This document shows, piece after piece, positions 34,223-57,761 of a stretch of 64,000 nucleotides of DNA. The notes beneath the pieces are model-generated. The model worked only from the letters and a program-made list of their open reading frames with translations, did not search any database and was not told where the DNA came from. Both the position numbers and the translations under genes were made by a program. Source of the DNA: Candidatus Bathyarchaeota archaeon BA2. Lineage in GTDB: Archaea; Thermoproteota; Bathyarchaeia; Bathyarchaeales; Bathyarchaeaceae. Location: assembly GCA_001399795.1 (NCBI GenBank), contig LIHK01000056.1, positions 89,873-153,872 on the forward strand, given 5' to 3'. Positions within the stretch are counted from its first letter, which is position 1. Every line of letters starts with the position of its first letter.

Positions 34223-34248
34223 CTATCTTTCTCCATTAAATAAGCCGA

Positions 34249-40353: not shown

Positions 40354-41799
40354 GTGATGAAGATGCCCGAAAAAATCATTCTGAGATTGTTGGAAGATGC
40401 TGTTGGAAAGGAAAACGTATCTGATGATGAAAGCATTTTGATTGCTTACTCCAGGGATCAATATTGGAACTTTGTTCCACCTAAAATGCCTGATTATGTT
40501 GTGAGACCAAAAAATACCGAAGAAGTTCAGGCTGTAATGCGTATCGCAAACAGATATCGCATCCCTGTTATCCCGATGAGTAGTGGAGTAAACGTCCGAG
40601 GACTCTGCATTCCGGAGCAGGGTGGAATCGTCCTTGAATTGAAAAGGATGAATAGAATTATTGAAATAAACAAGGATGCTATGACTGCCACGGTTGAGCC
40701 AGGCGTTACAATGGTCGAATTCGTAGCAAGTGCTAGGAAACTCGGCCTCAGGCCTGCAGTCCCGGGCGCCCCTGCTGTGGTCTCGCCAGTATCAAATTAC
40801 ATGCTAAGAGGGGTTTATCATCATATTTCTTCCATTGGAATCGATCATGTTCTTTCGATGGAAATAGTTCTGCCGAATGGCGAACTTTTATACACTGGTT
40901 CAGCAGCCTTCCCAAATATTGGTCCGTATTCAAGATTTGGATTTGGTCCAGATCTCACAGGTCTTTTCATGGGTCAGCCAGGAACGATGGGTGTTGTAAC
41001 AAAATTGACTTGCCGTATGTATCCGCTTCCTGAGGCTGAGGAGTGGCTTGGAGCCGGGTTCAATGATCTGAGTAAAGCTGTAAAATTTGTGGATGAATTA
41101 ATGACTGAAAAGCTGTTGGCAAGCTGCTGGTTGCTACACTGGTCTGTTCCCTTAATTACGATGGCGCCTTCACGCGATCTTCAAAAACTTAGGGAGGATG
41201 TGCTTGGGGGATGCGAATGGTTTATAAACCTAACATTCGAGTCGAGCAAAGGCCTCATAGACTATAAGAGAAAAGCCGTTGAAAAGATTGTTCAAAAGTA
41301 TAAACCCGACCTTATCGGAGGGCCGCTCCCCATGGAAGTGGGACCAATAAAGAATGAATGGATGTATCCGAGAAGGATATTTAATTGGTTTAAGTTCGGA
41401 AATTACTTCGCACTAGCCTTCTGGGGACCACTAACTAAATTTGAAGAATATCACGATTTAGGCCTTAAGTTCTGGAAAAAACATGGGCTTGACCCCGAGA
41501 AATTTTCAATTATAGCCGCGCCAACCGAGCCTTATTGCGGTAAACTTAGTTACATAGAAATGGAATGTTTTTACGACTCAACAAACCGAGCTGAGGCTGA
41601 ATCACTGACCGCATTTACATCAGATATGACGAATGAACTTATAGAACTTGGGATATATGGATGGTTTAGGCCTTACGCATTGGCAGTGAAAGCTTCACTT
41701 GGTAAACTTAAGGGAAATTATGTAGAGCTTTGGAAGAAGATTCACGACATTATTGATCCAAATAATACAATGAATCCTGGCAAGCTTTGGCCAGTTTAG
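40354..41799 (+). CDS. FAD-binding oxidase, GlcD/VAO family (copy 2)
   Basis: PDYVVRPKNTEEVQAVMRIANRYRIPVIPMSSGVN, TATVEPGVT, DPNNTMNPGK; paralog of 31271-32680. Confidence 0.8.
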   Translation: MMKMPEKIILRLLEDAVGKENVSDDESILIAYSRDQYWNFVPPKMPDYVVRPKNTEEVQAVMRIANRYRIPVIPMSSGVNVRGLCIPEQGGIVLELKRMNRIIEINKDAMTATVEPGVTMVEFVASARKLGLRPAVPGAPAVVSPVSNYMLRGVYHHISSIGIDHVLSMEIVLPNGELLYTGSAAFPNIGPYSRFGFGPDLTGLFMGQPGTMGVVTKLTCRMYPLPEAEEWLGAGFNDLSKAVKFVDELMTEKLLASCWLLHWSVPLITMAPSRDLQKLREDVLGGCEWFINLTFESSKGLIDYKRKAVEKIVQKYKPDLIGGPLPMEVGPIKNEWMYPRRIFNWFKFGNYFALAFWGPLTKFEEYHDLGLKFWKKHGLDPEKFSIIAAPTEPYCGKLSYIEMECFYDSTNRAEAESLTAFTSDMTNELIELGIYGWFRPYALAVKASLGKLKGNYVELWKKIHDIIDPNNTMNPGKLWPV

Positions 41800-43007
41800 G
41801 AGGTGTCGTGAGCATGCAAGGTTTAAGGGATTTAGAGAAATGGCGTAAATTCTCGTATTTATGTGCCCATTGCCGTTGTTGCTCCGCGGCGGATTATCAT
41901 ACGTTAGGAGAATATATGCAGATATGCCCTTCCGGAACATACTTTGGATTTGAAAGCTACTTTTCATCTGGCAAAATGGAAGTCATTCGTGGTTTGATAG
42001 AGGGACTGATTTCGAAACCATCAGAAAAACTACTCGAAATAGTTTATGTCTGTACCTTATGTGGTGCTTGCGAAAAAAACTGCGAGGAATTCACTCTGTT
42101 AGGAGAAGACTCTGGAGGCTTGACGCACATCTTTGAGGATGCTAGAGCCTTCCTCGTAGAAAGTGGGTGGGGGCCACTTGAGAAACATAAAGAGTTTGCC
42201 AGTAGCATCAGAGTTAATCACAATCCATACTTAGAACCGCATGAAAAAAGAGAAAGCTGGACAGAAAAAAGTTCGTTAAGAAAAGGGTCTCTGGTTTATT
42301 TCACAGGCTGTACTTCGTCTTATAGACAGAAGGAAGTGGCGAAGGCTACTGTTAAAGCATTGGAAGCAATGGAAGAAAAATTTGTGATAATGGGTAGCGA
42401 AGAATGGTGTTGTGGTTCTCCGCTTTTGAGGACAGGACAGATAGATCAGATAACTGAACTGGCTGAACATAATGTAAAAGCCTTAAAAGAAATAGGGGCT
42501 AAAAAAGTAATAACTTCTTGTGCAGGTTGCTATAGAACTTTAAAAAGCGAATACCCAAAAATATTAGGCGCACAACCAGACTTTGAAGTGGTGCATTCTT
42601 CTCAATTTTTTGCGGGGGCGCTTGACAAAAATAAATTGAAGCTCACTAAAGATGTTGATGCTACGGTTACCTACCATGATCCATGTCACCTGGGCAGGCA
42701 TATGGGCGTGTACGACGAACCGAGAAATCTTCTTAAAAAGATTCCAGACCTAAAACTGGTGGAAATGCCTAGGAGCCGACAAAATAGTTGGTGTTGTGGT
42801 GCGGGAGGCGGCGTCAAATCTGCGTTTCCAGATTTTGCGACATCAACAGCCGTTGAGAGATTGAGGGAGGCTGAGGCAATTGGAGTTAAAAAAATAGTGT
42901 CGATGTGTCCCTTTTGCAAACATAACCTCACAGACGCAGCCAAACTACTTAAGAACAAATTCGAAGTCTACGATGTTGTAGAGCTACTTTCAAAGGCAAT
43001 AGGCTAA
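41787..43007 (+). CDS. HdrD/GlcF-like Fe-S protein with two CCG domains (copy 2)
   Basis: CAHCRCCS, CTLCGACEKNC, EWCCGSPLLRTG, SWCCGAGGG, CPFCKHN; roughly half the residues are identical to copy 1 by eye. Confidence 0.75.
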   Translation: MASLGGVVSMQGLRDLEKWRKFSYLCAHCRCCSAADYHTLGEYMQICPSGTYFGFESYFSSGKMEVIRGLIEGLISKPSEKLLEIVYVCTLCGACEKNCEEFTLLGEDSGGLTHIFEDARAFLVESGWGPLEKHKEFASSIRVNHNPYLEPHEKRESWTEKSSLRKGSLVYFTGCTSSYRQKEVAKATVKALEAMEEKFVIMGSEEWCCGSPLLRTGQIDQITELAEHNVKALKEIGAKKVITSCAGCYRTLKSEYPKILGAQPDFEVVHSSQFFAGALDKNKLKLTKDVDATVTYHDPCHLGRHMGVYDEPRNLLKKIPDLKLVEMPRSRQNSWCCGAGGGVKSAFPDFATSTAVERLREAEAIGVKKIVSMCPFCKHNLTDAAKLLKNKFEVYDVVELLSKAIG

Positions 43008-43087
43008 ATAAGCTTATCAAAAATATTTTTAACTCTTTATAAACAAATAACTAAAATTATTATGGAGAACTGGTAGAGGGGGACTAT

Positions 43088-43546
43088 ATGCCTTTAATTG
43101 GAACTAAAAAATGGTTTGAGGCTACTACAAAAGCTTGGAATTCTGACCCTGACAACGTAAAAAGCATGGCAGAAGTACAGGAATCAATTCTCTTGGTTGT
43201 AGATGATCCACCCATAAAGGGGTTAAGAGAGAAAGTAGAAAGCGATGTAATAGACCCTGAAATTTTGAAACGGATGGAAGCTGAGAATAGAGCGGAGTTA
43301 ATTCTCAACATTGAGGATGGCCAAATCAAGGAGTTTAGATTTGCTAGACCCGATGATAGACCTACGGTTATCTTGAGTGGGAAATACGAAGAATTCGAAA
43401 AGGTTGGGAAGGGGGAGGCTGAAACCGTCTGGCAAATTTTAGATGCAAAAGTCAAGTTTAAAGGCGTATTACCTAGATTCGCTACATATATAGATGAGTA
43501 TACTAAACTCTGGCAAATTATAATAGCGAATACAGAGGTTCCTTAG
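43088..43546 (+). CDS. SCP2 (sterol/lipid carrier)-like domain protein
   Basis: GTKKWFEATTKAWNSDPD..., PTVILSGKYEEFEKVGKGEAETVWQILDAKVKFKG follows the SCP2 C-terminal pattern (G-x-l-d-p..A...GK+k.kG). Confidence 0.55.
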   Translation: MPLIGTKKWFEATTKAWNSDPDNVKSMAEVQESILLVVDDPPIKGLREKVESDVIDPEILKRMEAENRAELILNIEDGQIKEFRFARPDDRPTVILSGKYEEFEKVGKGEAETVWQILDAKVKFKGVLPRFATYIDEYTKLWQIIIANTEVP

Positions 43547-43559
43547 GAGATTAAGCAAA

Positions 43560-45032
43560 ATGGAAGAAATCGGTTTAGAGGAAAAATTTGAAATAGAAAA
43601 AGTAAAATGGGAGAAGACTTTGGAGGAAATGGGCCTTGACAAAATCTGGAAGAAGATGGTAGCAATAACCCCATTCCCTGGCAAAACCCCGATGTTTGCT
43701 GAAGTATGGTTTGTCATGCCTTTTACGCGGAATTTTTTCAGAGAAGTTGGCATAAATCCCGAACTCTGGCAAAGGCTGAAGTATGAAAATTTTGTCGAAT
43801 GGTCGTACCGCGTGGATCGAGCCGTTGAAACATCCGACCGCTGCATGAAAGAAAAGATCCCTAAGGAAGAGATCTACTGGACCAAAAACCTATGCTACTT
43901 GAGCCATCCACCCGCATATCTATGTAGACCTGATGTCGGGAAATCCTCTTGCGTAGCGCTTTACGGAAAATACGCGACATGTGAATACGTGCATGTAGAC
44001 GATTTTACTAGGGAGGTCTACTGGGTCAACGGCTACCATAACGAAGACGGGATACCCGTTCATAGGTGGACTGTTGGAGCGGATGAAAACATAAGCAAAT
44101 ATTTCGATGCGGAGGATGATGTAGCGTTCACGCAAAGCACGGCTGAGCATACCGCACCAGCCAGCAGGAAGGAACTGGACGAAAGGCTAGATAGGAGACA
44201 CCTCCGAACCGGGATAAAGATTAGGGATGCTCCTAAAAAACACTGGGATCCATATGATTGGGGGATGGCTGTGCGCGATGTGATCACTGACCTTAGAATT
44301 GAAAGCTTTCCCAAGTGGGTCCATGCGACACTATACATGTCTTGTGTTTCAATGATCTCTAGCACGATAGCCCAAAGCGTGCTAACTAGCTCCGAATTTT
44401 TCATTTACGTGTATTACGGGCTTAACACCACAGCTCTGGGTATCAACTACAATTTATTTTCATACGTGCCCCTCCCGCCCATGATCAGAGTCCTCATCGG
44501 TCTACCTCAAGAAACATTTGTCAAGCGCATGAGTCAACTCTTTCTAGGCGGTTATGATGCATTCCACAGGTACACATGTAAAGAGAAGAAAATCCCAAAT
44601 CTCTTCAAACTGAAGAGATACACGTTTGAACACGGGCAGTTCTTCCCACACTACAAGGGAATACCCCCACCCATGGTTATAGCTCGTGCTATCCCACCCT
44701 CTCTCCAAAAGATCAATTTGAAACAATTCTTGGAGACGCCTCCAAGCAAGGAGTTTTGGGAAATCCTGGAGAGTGAAGCAAGGGCGAATCGTGAGACAGG
44801 TGAAATCCCACCGGCGGATGAGACCGGTAGGATGTATTTCCTATTAGACCCATCGATAGAGCCACTTAAAGCCAAAGACTTCCCCCCGATGGACTTCAAT
44901 GAGGGACAGATTTGGCCATTCGACATCACCCGGGAGAAGGTTGAAATTATGGTCGAAGAAGGGTACGATGGATCTGGAAGGAATATAGAGTATTATAGCG
45001 AACTTGCAAACAAAAAAATGGGCAAAAAATAG
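43560..45032 (+). CDS. Orphan 490-aa protein of unknown function (Cys-rich segment plus central hydrophobic region)
   Basis: Long uninterrupted ORF 14 nt after the SCP2-like stop. It has 5 Cys within CMKEKI..CYLSHPPAYLCRPDVGKSSCVALYGKYATCEYVH. No family recognised. Confidence 0.6.
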   Translation: MEEIGLEEKFEIEKVKWEKTLEEMGLDKIWKKMVAITPFPGKTPMFAEVWFVMPFTRNFFREVGINPELWQRLKYENFVEWSYRVDRAVETSDRCMKEKIPKEEIYWTKNLCYLSHPPAYLCRPDVGKSSCVALYGKYATCEYVHVDDFTREVYWVNGYHNEDGIPVHRWTVGADENISKYFDAEDDVAFTQSTAEHTAPASRKELDERLDRRHLRTGIKIRDAPKKHWDPYDWGMAVRDVITDLRIESFPKWVHATLYMSCVSMISSTIAQSVLTSSEFFIYVYYGLNTTALGINYNLFSYVPLPPMIRVLIGLPQETFVKRMSQLFLGGYDAFHRYTCKEKKIPNLFKLKRYTFEHGQFFPHYKGIPPPMVIARAIPPSLQKINLKQFLETPPSKEFWEILESEARANRETGEIPPADETGRMYFLLDPSIEPLKAKDFPPMDFNEGQIWPFDITREKVEIMVEEGYDGSGRNIEYYSELANKKMGKK

Positions 45033-45091
45033 ATTAAAAGCCGTTAAAGAGTTCTTTGCAGCATCCCCGTACATTATTAGACTTTAACTCG

Positions 45092-45583
45092 CTACGGGGC
45101 TCCAAGAGACCATGCGGAGGGCCTTCCACTTCTCGGTCGTCCAGCAGCCACATCGAAAATGTCTTTTAAATCCATCGCTGCAGCTATGTTCCCTTTTATA
45201 TCACCTCTGCCACTAAAGAATGCTGACATTATATCTATTTCCCCGATCATAGACCTGGCGAGGTCGTAATACTTGAGCGTGAGTACTAAATCGGGCTCCT
45301 CACCCTCTGGTTCCCCTGGCTTCATCGAGACAGGGGCAAACATTAGGGTGAGAGGTTCGATTCCACGTTTCGGGTGCTCCGCCCTAATTACTATTAACCT
45401 AGGTGGAATTTGGGCTGCAATATCTAGCGCCTCTGGAGTTATCATAACTTTCCCGATAGTAAATCCATACATTAATTCTTCAAACATGGGTTCTTTTTCA
45501 TGTGCTTTCAGCCATTCTACTTTTTTCCACCATCCATCGGGTAACTCTTTATATTCAGCTTCTTCCGACGACAAACAAATCAC
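45092..45583 (-). CDS. SCP2-like domain protein
   Basis: DLVLTLKYYDLARSMIGEIDIMSAFFSGRGDIKGNIAAAMDLKDIF is a classical SCP2 C-terminal motif; divergent from mcrA. Confidence 0.65.
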   Translation of the reverse strand: MICLSSEEAEYKELPDGWWKKVEWLKAHEKEPMFEELMYGFTIGKVMITPEALDIAAQIPPRLIVIRAEHPKRGIEPLTLMFAPVSMKPGEPEGEEPDLVLTLKYYDLARSMIGEIDIMSAFFSGRGDIKGNIAAAMDLKDIFDVAAGRPRSGRPSAWSLGAP

Positions 45584-45676
45584 CGATTGAATTTAAGGTA
45601 AAAACCTTTATATCTTTTCCGTCACTACTAAGTCTAGGAGACCAACAGATATTTTAAAAATAGAAGGGGTAGAATC
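45584..45676. promoter_or_regulatory. Divergent promoter region between the SCP2-like gene and mcrA-like gene
   Basis: TATA-like boxes TTTATATC (45607-45614, about 24 nt from the minus-strand ATG at 45583) and TTTTAAAAAT (45652-45661); purine-rich GAAGGGGT sits before the TTG start of mcrA. Confidence 0.3.
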
Positions 45677-47500
45677 TTGGAGGAGAAAGAAGAAAGAAAA
45701 AAGTTTTATGACGATAAAGGTCAAATAACGGCTAGAGAGCGCGATTACGTAAGGGAACTCTACGCTGTATCCAAAAAGTTCCTTCCAACCGAAAGAAGAA
45801 GAGCAATCTACTCTAGATTAGAGAAGCAATTTGGCGCAGACCCCCTCAGCCTTGTGGATTCAGAAATGTATAAACGGGGTGGGTACAGGCAATCAAAACG
45901 TAAACAAGAATTCGTTAAGTCGGGTCGACAAATTGCCATAGAAAGAGGCATACCAGCCTATAATCGAGCTGTTGGAATTCCTCTAGGTCAAAGAATTCTT
46001 GAACCTTACGTAATCACTGGGACTGATATTACAGTAGAACAGGATGATACTCATCATGTTAACAATCCAGCCATCCAACAGATGGTGGACGACATCAAGA
46101 GAACCACAATAGTCAACATCGACATCGCCCACAGAATGCTTCAAGTAAGGGCTGGAAAAGAAGTAACTCCGGAAACAATCAACCTCTACTTAGAAACCCT
46201 TAATCATACTATGTGCGGTGGCGCCGTAGCCCAAGAACACATGTCCGAGATTAATCCCTTGCTGGTGAAAGACGCGTATGCTAAGGTGATTACTGGAAGC
46301 GACGAAATTAAAGACGCTCTAGACAGAAGGTACGTCATTGATATTGACAGACTTTTTCACCCAACCAGGGCGGAGCAACTGAAGAAAGCCCTTGGCAACA
46401 GCATCTGGGTGGTTCTTAGAACCCCGACAATAGCGATAAGGATGGCTGATGGTGACGAGGCTCATAGGTGGGCTGCTATGCAGAACACGATGGCTTTTAT
46501 CGGATCCTACGGCCTTTCGGGAGAACACGTAGTTTCCGACCTAGCCTACTCCTTCAAGCACGCCAGAGTTGTAAACATGGGTAACAAAATGTGGTACCAA
46601 AGAATGCGCGGAAGGAATGAGCCCGGCGGCTTCCCAGACGGCTACATATGCGACTTCATCCAATCCGAGCGAGACCTACCGGCAAGACCTTTCTTGGAAG
46701 TTTCAGAGGAGGATCCGGAAGAGGCTAAGAAATATTCCCGTGCTATGTACGAAGGTATCGGCGCAATCGCAGCAGTTCTTGACAATATGATATGGCTGGG
46801 ATTCTACATGAGTGGCGGTATAGGATTCTCAAACACGGTATCCGCTGCAGGTCTCGCAGGAGGCGTAATAGAAGATATCACAGAAGAGCTTATTGAAACG
46901 ACCCACAGATATATCCGAGGTATAAAGAAGGTACCACCAAAATGGGATATTGTCAGATTCATAGTCGATATGATCATACAGTACGTGATGGAATCTTATG
47001 AAAAGTTCCCAGCATTGTCCGAATTCCATTGGGGAGGAGCCCATAAGGTTTCAATCATAGGTAGTATGGGTGCTGGTGTGGCTTCACTTCTCACAGGTAG
47101 TTCAACAATGGGCATGTGGGCTGGCCACTATGCTATAGCGCTGGTTATGAAAGAGGGGTGGTTGAGAACTGGATGGGCTGGACAAGAAATCCAGGATCAC
47201 ATAGGTTTGCCGAGCCTATGTAGCTTTAGGCCTGAAGAAGGCAATTTCGCGGAATTAAGAGGTCTTAACTACCCGATGCAATCATTCAGCGCAGCCCATG
47301 GTTCTCTAAGGGATGCAGCTATATATGGAGCAATGATAGGAAGAGGTTCAGCATGGAGTGCCAGTCCAGTGGTTAAGGTAGCTTTCGCTGATCCGCATCT
47401 GGTCTTTGACTTCAAGAATCCAAGATTATGCATTGCGAAAGCGTGTATAAAGCAATTCATGCCAGCCGGAGAAAGGGGCCCGTCGCTCCCAGCGCATTAG
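45677..47500 (+). CDS. mcrA: Divergent methyl/alkyl-coenzyme M reductase alpha subunit (ACR-like McrA)
   Basis: 607 aa; GGYRQSKRKQEF, ERGIPAYN, GKEVTPETINLYLE, MRGRNEPGG, YMSGGIGFSNTVSAAG, ELRGLNYP, FMPAGERG align with McrA landmarks. TTG is the only start candidate after the in-frame stop at 45635. Confidence 0.9.
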   Translation: MEEKEERKKFYDDKGQITARERDYVRELYAVSKKFLPTERRRAIYSRLEKQFGADPLSLVDSEMYKRGGYRQSKRKQEFVKSGRQIAIERGIPAYNRAVGIPLGQRILEPYVITGTDITVEQDDTHHVNNPAIQQMVDDIKRTTIVNIDIAHRMLQVRAGKEVTPETINLYLETLNHTMCGGAVAQEHMSEINPLLVKDAYAKVITGSDEIKDALDRRYVIDIDRLFHPTRAEQLKKALGNSIWVVLRTPTIAIRMADGDEAHRWAAMQNTMAFIGSYGLSGEHVVSDLAYSFKHARVVNMGNKMWYQRMRGRNEPGGFPDGYICDFIQSERDLPARPFLEVSEEDPEEAKKYSRAMYEGIGAIAAVLDNMIWLGFYMSGGIGFSNTVSAAGLAGGVIEDITEELIETTHRYIRGIKKVPPKWDIVRFIVDMIIQYVMESYEKFPALSEFHWGGAHKVSIIGSMGAGVASLLTGSSTMGMWAGHYAIALVMKEGWLRTGWAGQEIQDHIGLPSLCSFRPEEGNFAELRGLNYPMQSFSAAHGSLRDAAIYGAMIGRGSAWSASPVVKVAFADPHLVFDFKNPRLCIAKACIKQFMPAGERGPSLPAH

Positions 47501-47685
47501 CGTACTCTTGTTAATACGCCTAATGGATTAATTTTCCCTCTTAAAGCCACATTAAATAAGGGTTACTACCGTTTTTTGAAGTAACTTTTACTTTTTCTTT
47601 CTTCGAAACTCTAGTGTTAGGAGTTTTCAGTTCCAATCTGAAATCTTTGAGATAGACTAAATTAGGGGGATCGACCTTTCTGGCT

Positions 47686-47810
47686 TTTTGCCATGAAAAA
47701 ATGCTTCCACCAAGAAACGTCCATGTTAGCCAATCCATGGCTAAAGGGAGAAGAATTGAGGCTATTTCATGCTCTTTTAAAGGCGCGAAGCGCCATGTAC
47801 GTTTAGTCGG
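47686..47810 (+). repeat. Dispersed structured repeat, copy 2 (long form)
   Basis: TTTTGCCATGAAAAAATGCTTCCACCAAGAAACGTCCATGTTAGCCAATCCATGGCTAAAGGGAGAAGAATTGAGGCTATTTCATGCTCTTTTAAAGGCGCGAAGCGCCATGTACGTTTAGTCGG; 186 nt downstream of mcrA. Confidence 0.7.
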
Positions 47811-48013
47811 CAACGCCTGATATCGTCTTCCAGCCCTTCGGATTCTTCAACTCCAAAATCTCTCCAAACCCCTCTTCGCGACTCATTTAAACTGCTCTCC
47901 CTAACATCGGCAAATAATCTTCTAACTTCTTCCATTTGTGGTAGCACCGATCAATCCTGAATATACTTTCATGCTGGCAGCGCAAATTTCGAGACAATAA
48001 AAAGGGGAGAATC

Positions 48014-48583
48014 TTAGGCTTTAAACCGTTTAGTCAAGCTCGTCATTACCGGAACTAATTTTATTCCTGTCGCCAAATCTCCTTCCAGTTTGAACTGACC
48101 TGCTATGTATCCCTTAACTGGATCAACATCACCTATCAACAGTCCTATCAAAGTCTTCGCATCTGACGAAACCTTGAGATCAGGGGCATCCAAAAGGGCT
48201 GAGCCACCAGAAATTTTTCCACCACTCAGTTTAAAATGACCCTTTAAGGGGCTGTCGGTGGCTTCAAAGTTAACCTTTATTTCCCCTGCATTTACCACTT
48301 TTTTCTTAACTTCCTCGTCTTTCTCAACGAGTATGCCTACACCTTCCCACAAAACGTCCGTGAATGCTGCTGATGCTTCAGGTGCCTCGGTCACGAATTT
48401 TCTAACGTCGATCGATCTTAAGTTATTTACTAACCTCAATGCTAAATCCGGCATTGCCTCCATCAGGTTTCCAACGCCAAATGCTTTTACTCTCTCCACT
48501 AAAGGAGGGAGAGCAGTTTTCAGCTCATTTTCTGACATCTTGAGCGCTTTGTCTACGTCTTTCTTCAATTCTTCCGCACTCAT
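48014..48583 (-). CDS. SCP2-like domain protein (189 aa)
   Basis: DLKVSSDAKTLIGLLIGDVDPVKGYIAGQFKLEGDLATGIKLVPVM is an SCP2 C-terminal motif. Confidence 0.7.
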   Translation of the reverse strand: MSAEELKKDVDKALKMSENELKTALPPLVERVKAFGVGNLMEAMPDLALRLVNNLRSIDVRKFVTEAPEASAAFTDVLWEGVGILVEKDEEVKKKVVNAGEIKVNFEATDSPLKGHFKLSGGKISGGSALLDAPDLKVSSDAKTLIGLLIGDVDPVKGYIAGQFKLEGDLATGIKLVPVMTSLTKRFKA

Positions 48584-48776
48584 TACTCATCACCAGACTT
48601 CTCATCACCAGACTTTTTTTTCTTTATGAGGTCTTAAATAAAAGATTTTTGGCATAACAAAAACAAAACATAGCCTTAGCCTGAATGTTAAAATATCAAT
48701 TCATTTTGGGACAAAAATTGGAAAAAAGTTTATGGCCGTTAAAACTCTTGAAAAACTTTCTATATTCTTATAGTTT

Positions 48777-50141
48777 TTATGTGAGCGTACTATGTCTAGT
48801 ATCCTTATAGAATTCCTTTAATATAATCGTGATTAACCTAATTTCTTCTCCTTGCTTTTTTACCTCTCGCAAAAATGTGTTGTATAGTTCATTTGTGATG
48901 GGTAGGGGTCGAGACCTAACCATTGAAGCTGTGAGCATTAAATCGAATGCTCTTGCCTCTGCAACCGTTAATTTATGTAAAACGCCGAGTTTACTGGAAT
49001 CTTTAATGAATACAGGGTTCTCCTCCCGAGATAATTGGACAACTTCCCCGGCTAGTAAGGTTCCCGGTAAAGGGTCCGCTATGCTTATAGAATAATCATC
49101 CAACATTAGTTCCTCCACCAACTCTTTGGTTTCAGCATAATCTTCGTCTGTCTCCCCAGGGTATCCAACGATGAAAGCCCCCGCCACCTCCAACTTGGCT
49201 TCGCGGGCTCTTTTAACTCCCTCCATAATTTTGTCAACCGTTATTCCTTTCCTCATTTTAGCAAGTATTCTGTTGCTCCCAGATTCCATTCCATAAATAA
49301 CAAATCCAATCGTATACTTTCTAACAGCTTTTAACATAGCTTCATTAACCATGTCTACCCTCAGGTCGGGAACTGAAAGATTGTAGGGTCCCGTTATTCG
49401 GCTAACTTCTTTTAGCATGGTGATAAATGCTTCATCATTTAATTTAGACCCCTTACAGCCATATTGATTTGATGTACCCCCAAAAAGCGCTATTTTTTGT
49501 GCTCCAGCTTCTACGAAGGCTTTTACCTCCACAACTATGTCATTTACTGGACGCGATCGGACTTCACGACCGAAGAAGCATGGAACTTGACAGAAACTAC
49601 AATTCCCTAAACAGCCCCTATGCGTCTCTATATAAACATTAGCCCCTCGAATGTTTTGCCGTCCAATATTTTGAGGAATCTCCGGTAAGGCTCGGCCATC
49701 TAAACTGGCTGGCTTCCGGGGATGGGTCTTAACCATCTCGTTATCATGTTTAAACGATATCCCGTTAACTTCCTCTAAATTCCTCTTGGTTTTGAGGGCT
49801 TCTATGAGTTCGGGGGCTGTTTCTTCTCCCTCACCAATTACAACCACATCTATTTCCGGCAAGATTCTGAAGACAAGTTCGGAAATTTGGCTTATGGGAC
49901 CGCCAACTATGATTAAAGGTTTCAAGCCTACTTTAAGCTTTGAAACTAACTCCCTTGCATTTAAGAGATGAGAAACGGAGGTTAAACTTAAACCGATAAT
50001 ATCCATGCCCATTACGTTTTGTGGGCGAAGATTATTGAATAAACTAATTTGGTGTCCTCCTTTTTTTAATATACCACCAATTAACATTGCTCCATAAGAG
50101 AATACTTCTGGTGAAATTATTGCAATTTTCACCCTTCCCAT
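48777..50141 (-). CDS. B12-binding-domain radical SAM enzyme (class B)
   Basis: N-terminal Rossmann-like B12 domain (KIAIISPE...LIIVGGP...VVIGEGE), then HRGCLGNCSFCQVP (CX3CX2C). Confidence 0.8.
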   Translation of the reverse strand: MGRVKIAIISPEVFSYGAMLIGGILKKGGHQISLFNNLRPQNVMGMDIIGLSLTSVSHLLNARELVSKLKVGLKPLIIVGGPISQISELVFRILPEIDVVVIGEGEETAPELIEALKTKRNLEEVNGISFKHDNEMVKTHPRKPASLDGRALPEIPQNIGRQNIRGANVYIETHRGCLGNCSFCQVPCFFGREVRSRPVNDIVVEVKAFVEAGAQKIALFGGTSNQYGCKGSKLNDEAFITMLKEVSRITGPYNLSVPDLRVDMVNEAMLKAVRKYTIGFVIYGMESGSNRILAKMRKGITVDKIMEGVKRAREAKLEVAGAFIVGYPGETDEDYAETKELVEELMLDDYSISIADPLPGTLLAGEVVQLSREENPVFIKDSSKLGVLHKLTVAEARAFDLMLTASMVRSRPLPITNELYNTFLREVKKQGEEIRLITIILKEFYKDTRHSTLT

Positions 50142-50214
50142 CTAAATCCCGCATTAACATTTTTTAAGTTCAAGGATTCCCTAATAAAATATGAGAGCTA
50201 CTGGCTGTTGAGTA

Positions 50215-51969: not shown

Positions 51970-52435
51970 ACTTGTAGTTTAGTCAACTTCTAGGGTTTCG
52001 GGAGAATTGCGTTTTCCGAAATTCTGCAATTATTGGAACTATTTTTCAAAAGGGATTGATGAAATGGAGACCGCCTAATCTATTAGAGAGTAGTTATGGC
52101 TCTTTTAAAAACATCTCGTATATGTTGATGTGTTGTCGCCTTTAGTTCATCAAAAGCTTCTTTCATGTAGTAGTTACTTACTTATAGAAGAATGGCATTT
52201 CTCTTCAACTCAGTGCTTTCAGGTGTCTCAAGCAGTTCAATAACACAATACAAGTTGTCGTGTTCTTGTATTGTTTTAAATCTTCTAGTATTTTTTGCTC
52301 TGCCAACTTCTTTATTTGTTGAGCCCAGTGCAATCCCTTGGATTTTAGTTGGTGTTTTTCGAGGTCTTCTAATCCTCAAGCCCCTATTCCTTCTGCATCT
52401 AAAGTCATTTGGACACCTAATTTTTAGCAGAAGAC

Positions 52436-52687
52436 TTACACTTTCTTTAGATAAGGATTTGCACATTTTGGGCATTCAGGCTCTCTTAAAGCCTCTTCGG
52501 GGTCTCCCATCCACGCACACCTGGGACATTGTAGCTTTCCGTCTCTCCTTTTTAGAATCCTGAAAGTCTTGATGTGACCTGTGAGGCAATCAGGGCAAAC
52601 TGGAACAAAAGCGGCTTCTTTGTCGTCTCCCTTCCATCCGCAGGTGCATTCCAACAACAGGTTCTCCACCCTCTTACTTTTTACCAA
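52436..52687 (-). CDS. Small multi-zinc-ribbon protein
   Basis: 83 aa with CTC..., CPDC, CPRC, CPKC pairs; overlaps the stop of the upstream QueG-like gene by 14 nt. Confidence 0.5.
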   Translation of the reverse strand: MVKSKRVENLLLECTCGWKGDDKEAAFVPVCPDCLTGHIKTFRILKRRDGKLQCPRCAWMGDPEEALREPECPKCANPYLKKV

Positions 52688-53525: not shown

Positions 53526-53526
53526 C

Positions 53527-55119
53527 TCAAAATCCAGTTGAAATCAAAGCCTTTTTCTCTGTTTCCACCATGATGTTTACAACATCTTCCGGGTCGCCAA
53601 TAGTTTCTATTTTACCATTTCTCATGTAAGCAGCTCGATCGCACGCTATCCTGATGAAGTCAATATCATGGCTTATGATTAAATATGTTTGCCCTAAAGC
53701 GTCTCTCGCGTTTCTAATGCTCCTCGCAATCTCAACCCGCGTTATTGGATCCGCAGTGCCAGTCGGCTCATCCAACAGCACGATCTTAGGTTCCTTCATA
53801 AGAGAACGGGCGATACATACTCTATGTCTTTCTCCCTCACTAATCTGGTCTGGATATTTGTAAAGCAAGTATTCTATTTCTTTATCTGTAAAGTTTACCC
53901 CCCTCAAAACCTCGTAGGCCTTTTTGGTCTTTTGTTCTTCTGGCAAGGGTTCTTCCACAGCGCCAACAAGGTTCTCTAGAATTATTCTTCCGGCGTGCAA
54001 CGTGTACTCTTGGTGTAGAATATCCATTTTTGATGCAATCATTCCTCTTTCATCAGGTCCAGGAATACTCATGTCAAACCATTCTTCTCCTCTCTTCACC
54101 AGTATTTTGCCAGTGGTTGTAGGCTTTATGCCCATCATCATGTGCGCCAACGTAGTCTTTCCGCTTCCACTAAGACCCACAATTCCGAATATTTCACCTT
54201 CATATATTTTAAGATCAACGCCGTCCACTGCCTTCACGAGACCTCTATCGAATGTGTAATACCATTTCTTTACACCCTCACACTCCATTATCGGGTTGGT
54301 TCCTCTATACCTTTCAACTTGCACTTTTTCCACTTTCTCCATAAAAGCATTGTAGACATCTTCGGATTTTCCCATCACAGTTAACTCTCCGTTTTCTAGT
54401 AGGGCAGCCTCTTCAGATAACGCTTTAATAGCTTCTGGCCAATGCGAGGTTATGACAAGAGTTATGTGATCCCTATTGACGGCTTCCCTAATCACTTCAT
54501 GCACCACTTCGCTGGTGATCGGGTCCAAGGTGCCTGTGGGCTCGTCTGCAAGGAAAAGCAACGGATTCCTCGCTAAGCACATGGAAAATATGACTCTTTG
54601 CTTTTCGCCTCCGGAGAGGTCTCTTCCCAGATGAAGAAGCCGATGATCCAGCTTGACATGTGATATAAGCTCCGCAGCCCTCATGTCAATTTCCCCCTCG
54701 GGGTATCCGACGCTGATCAAAATTCTTCTGACGTTTTCTATGGCTGGAAATTCGCTGTATAGAGAGAAGCCTCGTTGAGGCATGATCGCGATCCTGTCAT
54801 GTAGCGTCAAGGACAGTCTAGTTTGCTTCTTCAACTCCTCCCAGTAATCAACCTCTCTAAACTCCATCGTCGTGGAGCACTTGGGGCATGGTTCCTCCTT
54901 CTTGGAAGGATACTCGACCCAGTGACAGTTAGGGCAATATGAAAGCCTGAAGATAATTTGTCCGTATGTCGGTTCATATTCAAGGATTCCCCTAATTGAC
55001 TGCATGATAATAGATTTCCCGTGACCGCTTTTGCCTAGTAGTCCAAAGGTTCCCCCTTCCCTAATTGTGAATGATATGTTTTTGATTATGGGGAGCCCTC
55101 TGACGAACTCTTTTGTCAA
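53527..55119 (-). CDS. atwA: Methyl-coenzyme M reductase system component A2 (double-ABC ATPase)
   Basis: GKSGHGKSIIMQSIRGILEYEPTYGQIIF, Zn-ribbon insert CPNC...CPKC, DLSGGEKQRV, FLADEPTGTLDP, ITSHWPEAI, and a second cassette GLSGSGKTT. Confidence 0.8.
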   Translation of the reverse strand: MTKEFVRGLPIIKNISFTIREGGTFGLLGKSGHGKSIIMQSIRGILEYEPTYGQIIFRLSYCPNCHWVEYPSKKEEPCPKCSTTMEFREVDYWEELKKQTRLSLTLHDRIAIMPQRGFSLYSEFPAIENVRRILISVGYPEGEIDMRAAELISHVKLDHRLLHLGRDLSGGEKQRVIFSMCLARNPLLFLADEPTGTLDPITSEVVHEVIREAVNRDHITLVITSHWPEAIKALSEEAALLENGELTVMGKSEDVYNAFMEKVEKVQVERYRGTNPIMECEGVKKWYYTFDRGLVKAVDGVDLKIYEGEIFGIVGLSGSGKTTLAHMMMGIKPTTTGKILVKRGEEWFDMSIPGPDERGMIASKMDILHQEYTLHAGRIILENLVGAVEEPLPEEQKTKKAYEVLRGVNFTDKEIEYLLYKYPDQISEGERHRVCIARSLMKEPKIVLLDEPTGTADPITRVEIARSIRNARDALGQTYLIISHDIDFIRIACDRAAYMRNGKIETIGDPEDVVNIMVETEKKALISTGF

Positions 55120-55549: not shown

Positions 55550-56941
55550 TTGTCAAACCTGTCTTTAAAATATAAAGATACATTAGACCTATACGATGAT
55601 CATTCCAATTGTATTGCAAAAGAAGTGCCGCTGCAAGCTCTCTCACCGTTATATAACCCCTATATGAGGGAGGTTTTAAATCTTTTCAAAAGAACAGCTT
55701 TTATTGACCTAGCCAAGCTGGAGCAATATGTAAAGTCTGGAAGAGCAGGCTGGGAAACAGTCGTTGGGCAAGATGAGATTCAAATGCCTTGGTACGGTAG
55801 GGACCTGCCTATGGTTGAGCGTTCAGAGGAAATAGCTGAGAGAATAAAAGAGAAAATCGCAAAATTCGATGACGGAGAGGAGGAGCTTGTGAAGCCTGTA
55901 GCAGGTGGCAAGCTAATCATTGTTAAGATACCGAGAAGAATGATGGAAGTTTCAGCCAGCCGCGACCCACCGCTCACATGGACGATGGTGGCTTTATGTC
56001 AAGCTATATCTGAAACTTTCAATTTGAATCCTGAAACTGACCCGGATGGCTGCAACATGGTGAGAGGAGCCATCTTTGGAAGGTACCCTCAATCCCCTGA
56101 GTTGCCTCCTGGTGGACCTGTTTTCGGACTTTTGAGGCAAAGCAACATCGTGGACGGTTTGGGGAGCGGGTTTAGAGGAATAATGGTGAATCACATTGTG
56201 GCCCTAGTTAATAAAAGAACTATGGACGGTGTTGCTTTAGCCACAATTTTGGAACAAGGTGCACAGTGGGAGATGGGTAACGTGTTGGGATGGTTTGAAA
56301 GATATAATCTCCTTGCGTCAGCCTACCAAGGCTTCAACGCAAACAATCTTGTTCTAGACCTCGTTCTGGAGAACAGGGAGGGAACTATAGGAGACGTTGC
56401 ACGTAGCACGGTGAAAAGGGCTGTAGAGGACGGGGTCATAAAAGTCAAAAAAACTTTTCCATCGGGGTACAAGGTCTATAGTACGAGTGACTATCCTCTT
56501 TGGAACGCATATGGTTGCGCTGGAGTGCTAGCTGCGGTAATAGTTAACGTTGGAGCGAGTAGAGCTGCACAAAGTGTTTCAACCGTTACAGGTTATTTTG
56601 GCGACCACTTGATTTTTGAGACTGGGGGGTTACCTGACCCTGACACTGGCAGAATTGAAGGCACAGGCATAGGCTATGCGTTCTACACCCATTCCATATA
56701 TGGCGGAGCGGGTCCTGGTGCGTATACTTTAGACCATGTTGTCGTAAGGAGTACCTCAGGTTTCTTAACTCCATGTGTCGTTGCAGGTATGTGTCTCGAT
56801 TCTGGAACTCAACTTTTCTCTCCTGAAATGACCTCCAGTGCTTTGTTCAAGATAAGAGATCACATGCCGTTACTCAACGAGCCGTTGAAAAAAGTGGCTG
56901 AGGCAGCTGAAAAGGTTAAAGGAGAATTAACAAAGGCATAG
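55550..56941 (+). CDS. mcrB: Methyl/alkyl-coenzyme M reductase beta subunit
   Basis: YKDTLDLYDD at the N-terminus; HSIYGGAGPGAYTLDHVVVRSTSGFLTPCVVAGMCLDSGTQLFSPE parallels the canonical HSIYGGGGPG...CVAAA..DAGTQMFSPE; TTG start. Confidence 0.9.
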   Translation: MSNLSLKYKDTLDLYDDHSNCIAKEVPLQALSPLYNPYMREVLNLFKRTAFIDLAKLEQYVKSGRAGWETVVGQDEIQMPWYGRDLPMVERSEEIAERIKEKIAKFDDGEEELVKPVAGGKLIIVKIPRRMMEVSASRDPPLTWTMVALCQAISETFNLNPETDPDGCNMVRGAIFGRYPQSPELPPGGPVFGLLRQSNIVDGLGSGFRGIMVNHIVALVNKRTMDGVALATILEQGAQWEMGNVLGWFERYNLLASAYQGFNANNLVLDLVLENREGTIGDVARSTVKRAVEDGVIKVKKTFPSGYKVYSTSDYPLWNAYGCAGVLAAVIVNVGASRAAQSVSTVTGYFGDHLIFETGGLPDPDTGRIEGTGIGYAFYTHSIYGGAGPGAYTLDHVVVRSTSGFLTPCVVAGMCLDSGTQLFSPEMTSSALFKIRDHMPLLNEPLKKVAEAAEKVKGELTKA

Positions 56942-56942
56942 T

Positions 56943-57761
56943 TTGAAGGTGATGCACGTGGCAAGTGAAAAGAGAGAGGAAAAAAGTGAATTCGAGCCTC
57001 AAATCTACCCTGGACAGGATGAGGTGTCAGAAAGAAGGAGAAAGCTTTGGGATAAGCGTCGACGCCTAACAAAGTATCGAGACGTACCAGACGATGACAT
57101 AACCCGCCTTCTGGGTCATAGGCCGGTTGGAGCACTATATGTAAGTGTCCATCCACCTCTTGATGAACTTATAGAACCATACGACCCGATAAAAAGTCTA
57201 GTTGCTCCGACACCAGGGGCGAGAGCAGGGGATAGGATAAGATTTGCTCAGTTTTCAGATAGTTTTTGGCATCCTCCAATAACTCCCTATGCTAGGCAAA
57301 GACTCTATTTTAATAGACTCAGAGGTGTCGATGTTGTCACCTATAGCGGCAGAACAATGTTAGAGATGAGGGAGCGGGATTTAGAAACAGCTGTAAAGCC
57401 TCTAATCGAAACCGAAGTATTCAACCCAGCTAGAACAAGTTTGAAAGGAATAACTATTCACGGACACTCTTTAAGGCTTGATGAAGATGGCCTAATGTTC
57501 GACGCTAGGCGAAGATTCGTTTACGATAAAGAGACAGGCGAGGTAGTTTACATTAAGGATCAATTCGGCAAAGTTTTAGACAGGCCAGTGCCAGTCGGGC
57601 GCCCCCCCTCAGAAGAGGAATGTAGAAAACTGAGTATAACCTACAGTTGGGATACCCGACAATTTAAATCCAGAACCGAAGTAATAGAGCTAATCTCAAG
57701 AGTTGCAAATATGAGGGTATTGGCAGGATTCAATCCCGAATCAATCAACGAGGAGATTTAA
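56943..57761 (+). CDS. mcrG: Methyl/alkyl-coenzyme M reductase gamma subunit
   Basis: PQIYPGQDEVSERRRK, FAQFSDSFWHPP, MLEMRERDLE, GHSLRLDEDGLMFD align with McrG. The true start may be ATG 56952 or GTG 56958. Confidence 0.9.
   Translation: MKVMHVASEKREEKSEFEPQIYPGQDEVSERRRKLWDKRRRLTKYRDVPDDDITRLLGHRPVGALYVSVHPPLDELIEPYDPIKSLVAPTPGARAGDRIRFAQFSDSFWHPPITPYARQRLYFNRLRGVDVVTYSGRTMLEMRERDLETAVKPLIETEVFNPARTSLKGITIHGHSLRLDEDGLMFDARRRFVYDKETGEVVYIKDQFGKVLDRPVPVGRPPSEEECRKLSITYSWDTRQFKSRTEVIELISRVANMRVLAGFNPESINEEI

What the first reader, a model, noticed from the sequence alone, without database searches (positions are those of the whole stretch)
43088..48583. Three SCP2-type lipid-carrier-like genes bracket the lone mcrA
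SCP2-like C-terminal motifs can be read in three genes:
- 43088-43546: ..ILSGKYEEFEKVGKGEAETVWQILDAKVKFKG.
- 45092-45583: ..MIGEIDIMSAFFSGRGDIKGNIAAAMDLKDIF. This gene is divergent from mcrA, with only 93 bp between the starts.
- 48014-48583: ..LIGDVDPVKGYIAGQFKLEGDLATGIKL.

SCP2 domains are known as carriers of sterols, fatty acyl-CoAs and other lipids. I do not recall them being part of mcr operons.

Three copies within 5.5 kb of a divergent mcrA suggest hydrophobic ligand handling, for example delivery of a long-chain alkane or alkyl-CoM, or removal of the product. This may be a previously undescribed accessory layer of an ACR system.
Basis: partly seen in the sequence, partly recalled or inferred. 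Interest (0 to 1): 0.85.

Follow-up and report, generated by a model that had tools for sequence, protein, structure and literature searches.

The report
SCP2-like gene built into ACR operons
One of the three flagged small genes belongs to a lipid-carrier-like (SCP2) protein family that sits directly beside the alkane-activating enzyme genes (alkyl-coenzyme M reductase) in archaea from at least four phylum-level lineages; I found no paper describing this linkage, and it marks the protein as a likely helper of that enzyme.

Summary
The window is from Ca. Bathyarchaeota archaeon BA2. All three ORFs exist and are under purifying selection. Two are SCP2-superfamily proteins: B (45092-45583) and C (48014-48583) pass the Pfam cut-off and match solved SCP2 domains. 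ORF A (43088-43546) shows only four weak SCP2 signals and is unproven. The mcrA is not orphaned; mcrB and mcrG lie 8 kb downstream.

The main result concerns B. It defines a distinct subfamily found next to ACR-type mcrA in 16 of 19 loci from species-representative genomes (Hadarchaeota, Helarchaeota, Syntrophoarchaeum, unclassified MAGs). All 13 informative metagenome loci that encode a B relative also carry mcr genes beside it. B starts -4 to +30 nt after the stop of mcrA or component A2 and co-diverges with McrA (Mantel r=0.88). Only 4 of 20 members reach Pfam SCP2 at E<=0.01, so most would likely be annotated as hypothetical. Searches of the paper library found no description of it.

C is loosely linked: some copies sit near mcr genes, others between acyl-CoA dehydrogenase genes. 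A always precedes an uncharacterised, ACR-linked 490-aa family.

B is probably an ACR accessory protein that binds a hydrophobic or amphipathic ligand. Ligand and mechanism are inferred. Both AlphaFold models were unusable.

The parts
45092..45583 (-). SCP2-B: the ACR-operon-associated SCP2-like protein (163 aa). It is the core of the finding.
   Evidence: Pfam SCP2 34.7 bits, E=2.4e-8. The family profile hits solved SCP2 domains (4uei at 3e-6, 1c44 at 4e-5). Homologs sit beside mcrA or A2+mcrB in 16 of 19 genome loci and 13 of 13 informative metagenome loci. Family invariants in window-B numbering are W18 W19 W24 E31 P32 R62 H70 E76 P84 G90 D98 Y105 G125 G131 N132 D138 D141 R154 W158 G161 P163. 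dN/dS is 0.05-0.25.
45584..45676 (.). 93-bp divergent spacer between B and mcrA
   Evidence: Read directly from the sequence. It contains two A/T-rich TATA-like elements. A promoter function is inferred only.
45677..47500 (+). ACR-type mcrA (607 aa, TTG start)
   Evidence: MCR_alpha_N and MCR_alpha domains. TIGR03256 scores 515 bits, below the 768-bit equivalog cut-off. It shares a clade-specific insertion with P0014 and P0015. It is 74-77% identical to Hadarchaeota ACR McrA.
48014..48583 (-). SCP2-C: an SCP2 domain with an ~85-aa N-terminal extension (189 aa)
   Evidence: Pfam SCP2 28.4 bits. PDB profile hits are AF_1534/3cnu at 7e-5, 3bn8 and 1c44. The ortholog in L001 keeps the GlnMT-C-mcrA order. 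Other family members lie between ACAD genes, beside the MCR-activation cluster, or in an unrelated context.
43088..43546 (+). ORF A: a 152-aa protein, possibly SCP2-like, always directly upstream of the long form of ORF490
   Evidence: No hit above threshold. Weak SCP2 signals appear. Synteny with ORF490 holds in L005, L018 and L022. dN/dS is 0.34.
43560..45032 (+). ORF490: an uncharacterised family linked to ACR genes
   Evidence: No Pfam, NCBIfam or PDB relative. Homologs are present in 15 of 19 genome ACR loci, including Alkanophaga. dN/dS is 0.18.
40354..43007 (+). GlcD-like FAD oxidoreductase plus a CCG/HdrD-like Fe-S protein
   Evidence: Pfam and NCBIfam hits. The same pair lies divergently upstream of mcrA in L009, L010 and L031.
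48777..50141 (-). McrA glutamine C-methyltransferase (B12/radical SAM)
   Evidence: TIGR04014 scores 543.6 bits against a 360-bit cut-off.
53527..55119 (-). Component A2 (AtwA)
   Evidence: TIGR03269 scores 638 bits against a 517-bit cut-off. In Helarchaeota-type operons A2 lies directly upstream of B.
55550..57761 (+). mcrB and mcrG
   Evidence: TIGR03257 scores 415 bits and TIGR03259 scores 277 bits.

Best explanation
Gene B (45092-45583) encodes a dedicated accessory protein of multi-carbon alkyl-coenzyme M reductases. It is a small soluble protein with an SCP2-type core, made together with McrA from the same operon. It most likely binds a hydrophobic or amphipathic small molecule used by the enzyme and passes it to or from the ACR active-site tunnel. 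Candidate ligands are the alkyl-CoM product, the alkane, or coenzyme B/heterodisulfide, which carries a C7 chain and anionic head groups. Shown here: SCP2-superfamily membership of B and C; strict, ancient operon linkage of B to ACR genes; co-divergence with McrA; purifying selection. Inferred: ligand binding, the identity of the ligand, and physical contact with ACR. C is a second SCP2 protein, more generally associated with alkyl/acyl handling. A, together with ORF490, forms a separate ACR-linked pair of unknown chemistry.
For: B is SCP2 by Pfam, and its 20-member profile matches solved SCP2 domains in its nine best PDB hits. A B homolog is adjacent to mcrA in 16 of 19 ACR loci from 11 of 13 species-representative genomes: Hadarchaeota, Helarchaeota, Syntrophoarchaeum and two unclassified MAGs. 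In the inverse test, all 13 informative metagenome loci encoding a B relative have mcrA or A2+mcrB beside it. B's first candidate start codon lies -4 to +30 nt from the stop of mcrA or A2 in 29 cases. The McrA and B identity matrices correlate with Mantel r=0.88, p=2e-4, and cluster almost identically. dN/dS is 0.05-0.25. The family keeps invariant aromatic residues (W18 W19 W24 Y105 W158) and basic or polar residues (R62 H70 R154 E76 D138 D141); this pattern would suit a specific cavity plus an anionic head-group site, or an interface. Other SCP2 genes recur near ACR genes: C in the window, L001, L018 and L022, and canonical small SCP2 genes in L013, L020, L029 and L042. From established knowledge, SCP2 domains bind fatty acyl-CoAs, fatty acids, sterols and isoprenoid lipids in a hydrophobic tunnel, and SCP2-type UbiJ/UbiT hold hydrophobic intermediates for a soluble enzyme complex.
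Against: There is no structural or binding evidence. Both AlphaFold models were low confidence (pLDDT 48 and 42), and the deep alignment could not be submitted. Only the C-terminal half of B aligns to SCP2. B is missing within 10 kb of mcrA in the two Alkanophaga loci and in L011, so it is not universal. It is present in a butane oxidiser, whose ligand is too short to need a classic SCP2 tunnel. B's position next to A2, and ORF490's position next to ycaO in Alkanophaga, fit an assembly or activation role equally well. From my own knowledge, the solved ethyl-CoM reductase contains only alpha, beta and gamma subunits; that clade was not sampled here.
Confidence: 0.45

Rival explanations
1. B is an assembly or activation factor of ACR rather than a substrate or product carrier. 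In this view it plays the role McrD or McrC plays in canonical mcrBDCGA operons, for example delivering (modified) F430 to apo-ACR or holding McrA open during maturation.
For: ACR operons lack in-operon mcrD and mcrC, and B occupies an intra-operon accessory position. In one operon type B directly follows the activation ATPase A2, in the order mcrA-ORF490-A2-B-mcrB-mcrG. The window is packed with MCR maturation genes: mmp3/5/6/7/15/17, mcrC, mcrD and the Gln methyltransferase. The ORF490-like gene is adjacent to ycaO in Alkanophaga. ACR-type A2 proteins form their own co-evolving group (bioRxiv 10.64898/2026.03.18.712670). McrD is known to bind MCR during assembly (PMC10288656, title and abstract listed).
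Against: B shows no homology to McrC or McrD. BA2 already has mcrC and mcrD genes at 33593-34779. As far as I know, the SCP2 fold has no precedent as a tetrapyrrole chaperone. Several other SCP2 genes cluster in the same neighbourhoods (C and the canonical SCP2 genes), and C also pairs with acyl-CoA dehydrogenases, which points to alkyl or acyl ligands.
Confidence: 0.27
2. B is a stoichiometric fourth structural subunit of multi-carbon ACRs. It would dock on McrA to extend or gate the substrate tunnel and would not act as a free carrier.
For: B's start codon is tightly coupled to the end of mcrA. Each of the two mcrA copies in Hadarchaeota has its own B paralog (L006). B co-diverges strongly with McrA. 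The N-terminal GWW...W motif and the C-terminal R-x3-W-P-x-G-x-P tail are strictly conserved and look like interface elements.
Against: In BA2, B is uncoupled and inverted, and it has diverged far more than its McrA (35-41% against 77% identity to Hadarchaeota). B is absent near the Alkanophaga mcrA genes. No complex prediction could be run. Co-divergence is also expected from simple co-inheritance within an operon.
Confidence: 0.13
3. The clustering has no ACR-specific function. B, C and A are ordinary lipid or acyl-CoA carriers of alkane and fatty-acid catabolism that were carried along when the mcr cluster moved between lineages by horizontal transfer.
For: C homologs lie between two acyl-CoA dehydrogenase genes (L002-L004) or in an unrelated context (L044). 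ACR clusters are known to move horizontally (PMC6478937), so shared gene order is not independent evidence in each lineage.
Against: For B, linkage survives McrA divergence down to 43% identity, three different operon layouts and four phylum-level lineages. No B-family gene was seen away from mcr genes. dN/dS is as low as 0.05. A passenger gene would be lost or scattered over that distance.
Confidence: 0.08

Closest known systems
SCP2 / nonspecific lipid-transfer protein domain (Pfam PF02036; e.g. rabbit and human SCP2 1c44/1qnd, the MFE-2 SCP2-like domain 1ikt, archaeal AF_1534 3cnu)
   Same: B and C score above the Pfam gathering score. Both share the hallmark C-terminal strand-helix-strand-helix motif (D-x-strand, G-x5-G-N/D, amphipathic last helix), and their top matches among PDB sequences are these domains.
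   Different: B has a conserved ~30-70-residue N-terminal region with an invariant GWW...W...EP motif and an H-P-x-R-G-x-E motif. Its last helix is acidic (D138, D141), and it carries an invariant C-terminal tail R-x3-W-P-x-G-x-P. None of these features is part of the Pfam model. Only 4 of 20 members are recognised by Pfam at E<=0.01. C has an ~85-aa N-terminal extension. No ligand is known for either protein.
UbiJ/UbiT SCP2-type accessory factors of ubiquinone biosynthesis
   Same: This is a functional analogy only: a small SCP2 protein encoded with an enzyme system, thought to hold a hydrophobic substrate for soluble enzymes. C gives a faint UbiT hit.
   Different: The UbiT hit is far below its cut-off (15.4 bits against 46.9), so C is not a member. 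B gives no hit. The pathway and the organisms are different.
McrD and McrC, the accessory proteins of the canonical mcrBDCGA operon
   Same: They occupy a similar intra-operon position among mcr structural genes, and a role in assembly or activation is plausible.
   Different: B has no sequence similarity to either (no TIGR03260 or TIGR03264 hit). BA2 has separate mcrC and mcrD genes. The fold class is different.
SCP2 domains attached to beta-oxidation enzymes (SCPx thiolase, MFE-2) and to alkylsulfatases (Alkyl_sulf_C)
   Same: In both cases an SCP2 module is associated with enzymes that act on alkyl or acyl chains. The ACAD-C-ACAD arrangement in a Hadarchaeon and the weak Alkyl_sulf_C hits of C echo this.
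   Different: Here the SCP2 proteins are stand-alone, not fused to an enzyme. B is linked to a nickel-F430 alkane-activating enzyme rather than to beta-oxidation.

Membership tests
SCP2 superfamily (Pfam PF02036): gene B | Sequence match to the family model above the curated gathering score | tested here: met
   34.7 bits against a cut-off of 21.3, E=2.4e-8, covering model positions 33-101. The family profile hits nine SCP2 structures at E between 3e-6 and 1.6e-3. Only 4 of 20 family members pass E<=0.01 individually.
SCP2 superfamily (Pfam PF02036): gene C | Sequence match to the family model above the curated gathering score | tested here: met
   28.4 bits against a cut-off of 21.3, covering model positions 7-100. 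The family profile hits 3cnu, 3bn8, 1c44 and 4uei at E between 7e-5 and 6e-4.
SCP2 superfamily (Pfam PF02036): ORF A | Sequence match to the family model above the curated gathering score | tested here: not met
   There is no hit for the window protein or for two Hadarchaeal orthologs. The homolog P0005 scores 14.9 bits, below 21.3. There is no PDB hit. hhalign against the B family gives E=1.2e-3 and against a canonical SCP2 pair E=1.1e-3, both at about 20% probability.
SCP2 superfamily: A, B and C | Alpha/beta SCP2 fold: a five-stranded sheet packed against helices, closed by a C-terminal helix | tested here: inconclusive
   AlphaFold models of A (pLDDT 47.9) and B (pLDDT 42.4) are too poor to use. 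The order of secondary-structure elements is compatible with SCP2. The top Foldseek hit for A is SCP2 2cx7, but at E=0.17 and TM 0.25.
SCP2 superfamily: A, B and C | A hydrophobic tunnel or cavity that binds a lipid-like ligand | not testable with these tools
   This needs a confident structure or binding assays.
Canonical MCR operon accessory proteins (McrC, McrD) | Match to TIGR03264 (McrC) or TIGR03260 (McrD) | tested here: not met
   A, B and C give no NCBIfam hit to either model. The window's own mcrC and mcrD are at 33593-34779.
UbiT/UbiJ SCP2 accessory factors | Match to NF047962 above its cut-off | tested here: not met
   C scores 15.4 bits against a cut-off of 46.9. A and B give no hit.
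Proposed 'ACR-operon SCP2-like protein' family (defined here) | Full-length match to the B-family profile, with the invariant motifs, and a position adjacent to ACR-type mcrA or A2+mcrB | tested here: met
   The window's B aligns over its full length with 19 homologs. It lies 93 bp from mcrA but in divergent orientation, unlike the 29 co-directional cases.

The most novel reading that the evidence does not exclude
The conserved unknown genes embedded in ACR clusters are the SCP2-like B, the ORF490 family, and either ORF A (Bathyarchaeia and Hadarchaeota) or a Cys-containing small protein (Alkanophaga and Syntrophoarchaeum). Together with the adjacent FAD/CCG oxidoreductase and the AOR genes, they may form the missing machinery that takes alkyl-CoM from ACR and converts it to an aldehyde, an acid or an acyl-CoA. 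In that scheme B would be the alkyl-CoM shuttle and ORF490 the unknown catalyst.
Probability: 0.15. Interest if true: 0.92.

Novelty: new variant of a known kind. Interest (0 to 1): 0.72.

Why it matters
Alkyl-coenzyme M reductases let archaea oxidise ethane, butane and oil alkanes without oxygen. How hydrophobic substrates reach the enzyme, how the enzyme is assembled, and how alkyl-CoM is converted to acyl-CoA are all open questions, and heterologous expression of an active enzyme remains a goal. A 2022 review treats ACR clusters as mcrBGA only and calls for the discovery of further accessory proteins (PMC9081873). A small protein that has stayed inside ACR operons across four phylum-level lineages, together with a second linked family that has no known relatives (ORF490), gives concrete and cheaply testable candidates. 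They could be included in expression constructs, looked for in native enzyme preparations and proteomes, and assayed for binding of alkyl-CoM, CoB, F430 or alkanes. The B-family profile would also serve as a genomic marker for multi-carbon ACR operons.

Tried and rejected
- **Recent paralogs:** rejected. B against C is 24% identical over 45 aa, and A matches neither.
- **Structure prediction of A and B:** both models were unusable (pLDDT 48 and 42). The fold search on the A model was not significant. No fold search was run on the B model because its confidence was too low.
- **K-mer-limited protein searches:** these found only 2-8 relatives per protein. The wider family came from locus retrieval.
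- **First metagenome scan with the full B alignment:** it failed because no stretch was conserved enough. A closer subset worked.
- **SCP2-like gene at the Alkanophaga loci:** the 161-aa ORF there is not SCP2-like. It is homologous to a Syntrophoarchaeum 184-aa ORF instead.
- **Identity of ORF490:** no Pfam, NCBIfam or PDB relative.
- **Literature:** A broad six-term search returned only animal SCP2 papers. Two Helarchaeota papers and one review describe the clusters as mcrABG or mcrBGA without the extra genes.
- **Not possible within the caps:** sampling of ethane-type ECR, Methanoliparia ACR and canonical MCR loci as explicit negative controls. The statement that the canonical mcrBDCGA operon has no such gene rests on established knowledge and the review read.


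Full report
**Source and context.** The window matches a 154.5-kb contig of Candidatus Bathyarchaeota archaeon BA2. The three proteins have 99-100% identical database entries from that MAG, where B and C are already named "SCP-2 sterol transfer family protein" and A is "hypothetical protein AOA66_1758".

The region is a large MCR/ACR gene neighbourhood:
- mmp8, mcrC, mcrD, mmp7, mmp17, mmp15, mmp5, mmp6 and mmp3 at 32.7-40.2 kb on the minus strand.
- A GlcD-like FAD protein and a CCG/HdrD-like protein at 40354-43007.
- ORF A, a 490-aa ORF with no family hit, then B on the opposite strand.
- A divergent ACR-type mcrA (TIGR03256 515 bits, below the 768-bit cut-off), then C.
- The McrA glutamine C-methyltransferase, an A2 paralog, an RDH/QueG-like Fe-S protein and component A2.
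- mcrB and mcrG at 55550-57761.

The mcrA is therefore detached from mcrBG by 8 kb but is not orphaned.

**The observation.** The ORFs, the quoted peptides and the 93-bp divergent spacer are all as described.
- **B** scores 34.7 bits and **C** 28.4 bits on Pfam SCP2, against a gathering score of 21.3.
- A 20-sequence B-family profile searched against all PDB sequences returns SCP2 domains as its nine best hits (4uei at 3e-6; rabbit and human SCP2 at about 5e-5; MFE-2 at about 6e-4).
- The C-family profile returns AF_1534, a putative SCP2 and rabbit SCP2.
- **ORF A** is different. It has no Pfam, NCBIfam or PDB hit. Its support comes from four weak, mutually consistent signals: a sub-threshold Pfam SCP2 hit in its 73%-identical homolog (E=0.034), which JGI names "putative sterol carrier protein"; hhalign E of about 1e-3 against the B family and against an independent canonical SCP2 pair, in the right register; and a non-significant top Foldseek hit to Thermus SCP2 from a low-confidence model. 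I rate A as possibly SCP2-like but not shown.
- The three proteins are not recent duplicates.
- All are under purifying selection, with dN/dS of 0.34 (A), 0.25 (B) and 0.31 (C) against orthologs.

**Conserved linkage of B.** A deep McrA search gave close ACR-clade representatives. An alignment of those retrieved 19 ACR loci from species-representative genomes:
- Four Hadarchaeota (McrA 74-77% identical to BA2).
- Three Helarchaeota.
- Two unclassified MAGs.
- Two Ca. Alkanophaga.
- Two Ca. Syntrophoarchaeum.

Searching six-frame ORFs of these loci with the window's proteins showed a full-length B homolog beside mcrA in 16 of 19 loci, from 11 of 13 genomes. Three layouts recur:
- mcrB-mcrG-mcrA-B.
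- mcrA-ORF490like-A2-B-mcrB-mcrG.
- In Hadarchaeota, mcrA-B-mcrB-mcrG-ORF490-mcrA'-B', where each mcrA copy has its own B.

The exceptions are the two Alkanophaga loci and one of three loci in a single MAG.

For the inverse test I searched metagenome contigs with a B-family alignment and recovered 18 loci. In all 13 where neighbouring sequence is visible, mcrA or A2+mcrB is immediately adjacent. Four have B cut at the contig edge, and one is a weak partial match. No B-family gene was seen away from mcr genes anywhere in the retrieved DNA.

In 29 co-directional cases B's first candidate start codon lies -4 to +30 nt from the stop of the upstream mcrA or A2 gene. McrA and B identity matrices correlate with Mantel r=0.88, p=2e-4, and give nearly the same clusters. 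B has therefore been inherited with its mcrA throughout this part of the ACR radiation.

BA2 and its close relative L005 are the only cases where B is inverted. BA2's B is also unusually diverged: 35-41% identity to Hadarchaeal B, against 77% for McrA.

**What defines the B family.** The alignment shows conservation over the whole length, not only the part Pfam recognises:
- An N-terminal G-W-W...W...E-P motif.
- R62 and an H-P-x-R-G-x-E motif.
- E-P-D followed by Y-Y-D at the start of the SCP2 helix.
- The SCP2 hallmark G...G-N.
- An acidic last helix (D138, D141).
- An invariant C-terminal tail R-x3-W-P-x-G-x-P.

Only 4 of 20 members reach Pfam SCP2 at E<=0.01. That probably explains why the gene is annotated as hypothetical in most genomes and why its recurrence has not been noted.

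**C and A.** C's ortholog keeps its place between the Gln methyltransferase and mcrA in a related metagenomic contig (L001). In two Hadarchaeota loci C lies in the block ORFA-ORF490-C(-)-AOR, about 4 kb from mcrA-B. Other members lie beside the MCR-activation cluster and a FAD/CCG pair (L043), between two acyl-CoA dehydrogenase genes in an ACR-bearing Hadarchaeon (L002-L004), or in an unrelated context (L044). A second C paralog exists elsewhere in BA2 (P0007), but its context could not be retrieved. C is thus a looser associate that also points to acyl-CoA metabolism.

A is found only in Bathyarchaeia and Hadarchaeota, and always directly upstream of the long form of ORF490. Helarchaeota-type loci carry yet another canonical 117-128-aa SCP2 (Pfam 47-57 bits) upstream of mcrB.

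**Mechanism.** Three things are shown: an SCP2-superfamily protein is an integral, ancient and selected component of multi-carbon ACR operons; it is produced from the same transcription unit as McrA or A2/McrB; and further SCP2 proteins accumulate nearby.

The rest is inferred. By analogy with SCP2 domains generally, and with the UbiJ/UbiT type of accessory factor, B probably binds a hydrophobic or amphipathic ligand for the enzyme. The invariant aromatic and basic residues would suit a ligand with an aliphatic part and an anionic head, such as alkyl-CoM, CoB or the heterodisulfide. I cannot distinguish this from a protein-protein interface.

Long-chain alkane solubilisation is not favoured, because B occurs in the butane oxidiser and was not found near the Alkanophaga mcrA genes.

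The main rival is an assembly or activation role, like that of McrD/McrC. Support for it comes from the A2-B adjacency, the surrounding maturation genes, and the ORF490-ycaO adjacency in Alkanophaga. A stoichiometric fourth subunit is a third option. Pure hitch-hiking is unlikely for B, given that linkage persists down to 43% McrA identity and across three operon layouts.

**Comparison with what is known, and novelty.** The genes themselves are annotated in BA2, and SCP2 is a well-known fold. I could not find any description of an SCP2-like gene as a conserved ACR operon member:
- Six searches of the paper library found no paper pairing SCP2 or sterol-carrier terms with ACR, MCR, Bathyarchaeota BA2 or Syntrophoarchaeum: five returned nothing and a broad six-term search returned only animal SCP2 papers.
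- A 2022 review lists ACR clusters as mcrBGA and notes that further accessory proteins may await discovery.
- Two Helarchaeota papers describe mcrABG clusters without the extra genes.
- A 2026 preprint on component A2 reports ACR-specific A2 lineages but not this gene.

The library covers only open-access papers and preprints, so an earlier mention elsewhere cannot be excluded. I classify the finding as a new variant of a known kind: a distinct, operon-embedded SCP2 subfamily and a candidate ACR accessory factor.

**Limits.**
- There is no usable 3D model.
- Canonical MCR, ethane-type ECR and Methanoliparia ACR loci were not sampled.
- Locus retrieval depended on two short peptide patterns and is not a census.
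- Shared synteny is partly explained by common descent and horizontal transfer of the whole cluster.
- Gene starts in the retrieved loci are my own calls.

Noticed in passing
window 43560-45032 (+); homologs include L006:3676-5247, L009:5117-6301, L014:6569-7708 and L016:8188-9312: The 490-aa ORF belongs to a family with no Pfam, NCBIfam or PDB relative. It is present in 15 of 19 genome ACR loci across every lineage sampled, including Alkanophaga, where it sits between a small Cys-containing ORF and ycaO-mcrA. It has long (490-526 aa) and short (335-416 aa) forms and is often tandem in Helarchaeota. Invariant residues are P117 P118 G136 E162 H214 G218 D244 R246 P304 P306 R323. It may be an ACR-specific enzyme or assembly factor.
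   Followed up: partly
window 40354-57761, compared with L009, L010, L031 and L033: The BA2 region holds the same gene set as the compact Helarchaeota operon (GlcD/CCG divergent | mcrA-ORF490-A2-B-mcrB-mcrG | RDH/QueG-like convergent), but spread over 17 kb and rearranged. This suggests a conserved ACR super-cluster.
   Followed up: partly
window 52674-53525 (-): An RDH/QueG-like 4Fe-4S protein is conserved immediately downstream of mcrG on the opposite strand in six Helarchaeota-type loci (274-300 bits in L010, L024, L030, L033, L036 and L037). It is another conserved ACR neighbour of unknown role.
   Followed up: no
L014:6083-6565, L015:6997-7479, L016:9316-9867 and L023:9359-9904: Small ORFs flanking the ORF490-like gene in Alkanophaga (161 aa) and Syntrophoarchaeum (184 aa) are homologous to each other (hhalign 95%, E=2.4e-8). 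They contain conserved Cys residues, are not SCP2-like and have no Pfam hit.
   Followed up: partly
window 58366-62180 (+): A full-length aldehyde:ferredoxin oxidoreductase gene (59349-61232) is flanked by an N-terminal AOR fragment (58366-59217) and a C-terminal AOR fragment (61566-62180). This may be a disrupted second copy or an assembly artefact. AOR genes also lie next to the A-ORF490-C block in L018 and L022, and near C in L001.
   Followed up: no
window 30051-32680 and 40354-43007: Two copies of a CCG/HdrD-like plus GlcD-like FAD oxidoreductase pair flank the MCR-activation gene cluster. The same pair lies upstream of mcrA in Helarchaeota loci and next to a C homolog in L043.
   Followed up: no
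window 45092-45583, compared with L006, L007 and L008: BA2 McrA is 74-77% identical to Hadarchaeota McrA, but BA2 B is only 35-41% identical to their B proteins and clusters apart from them. B either evolved faster or was replaced when it became inverted in the BA2 lineage.
   Followed up: partly
L002:3783-6956 (Hadesarchaea S4B3_HD70): A C-family SCP2 gene lies between two acyl-CoA dehydrogenase genes in an ACR-bearing Hadarchaeon. This is a possible link between this SCP2 subfamily and beta-oxidation of alkane-derived acyl-CoA.
   Followed up: no
window 50215-51969 (+): A component-A2 paralog (TIGR03269 282 bits, below the 517-bit cut-off) sits beside the Gln methyltransferase and C. The arrangement is conserved in L001, and a genuine A2 lies 1.5 kb away.
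   Followed up: no
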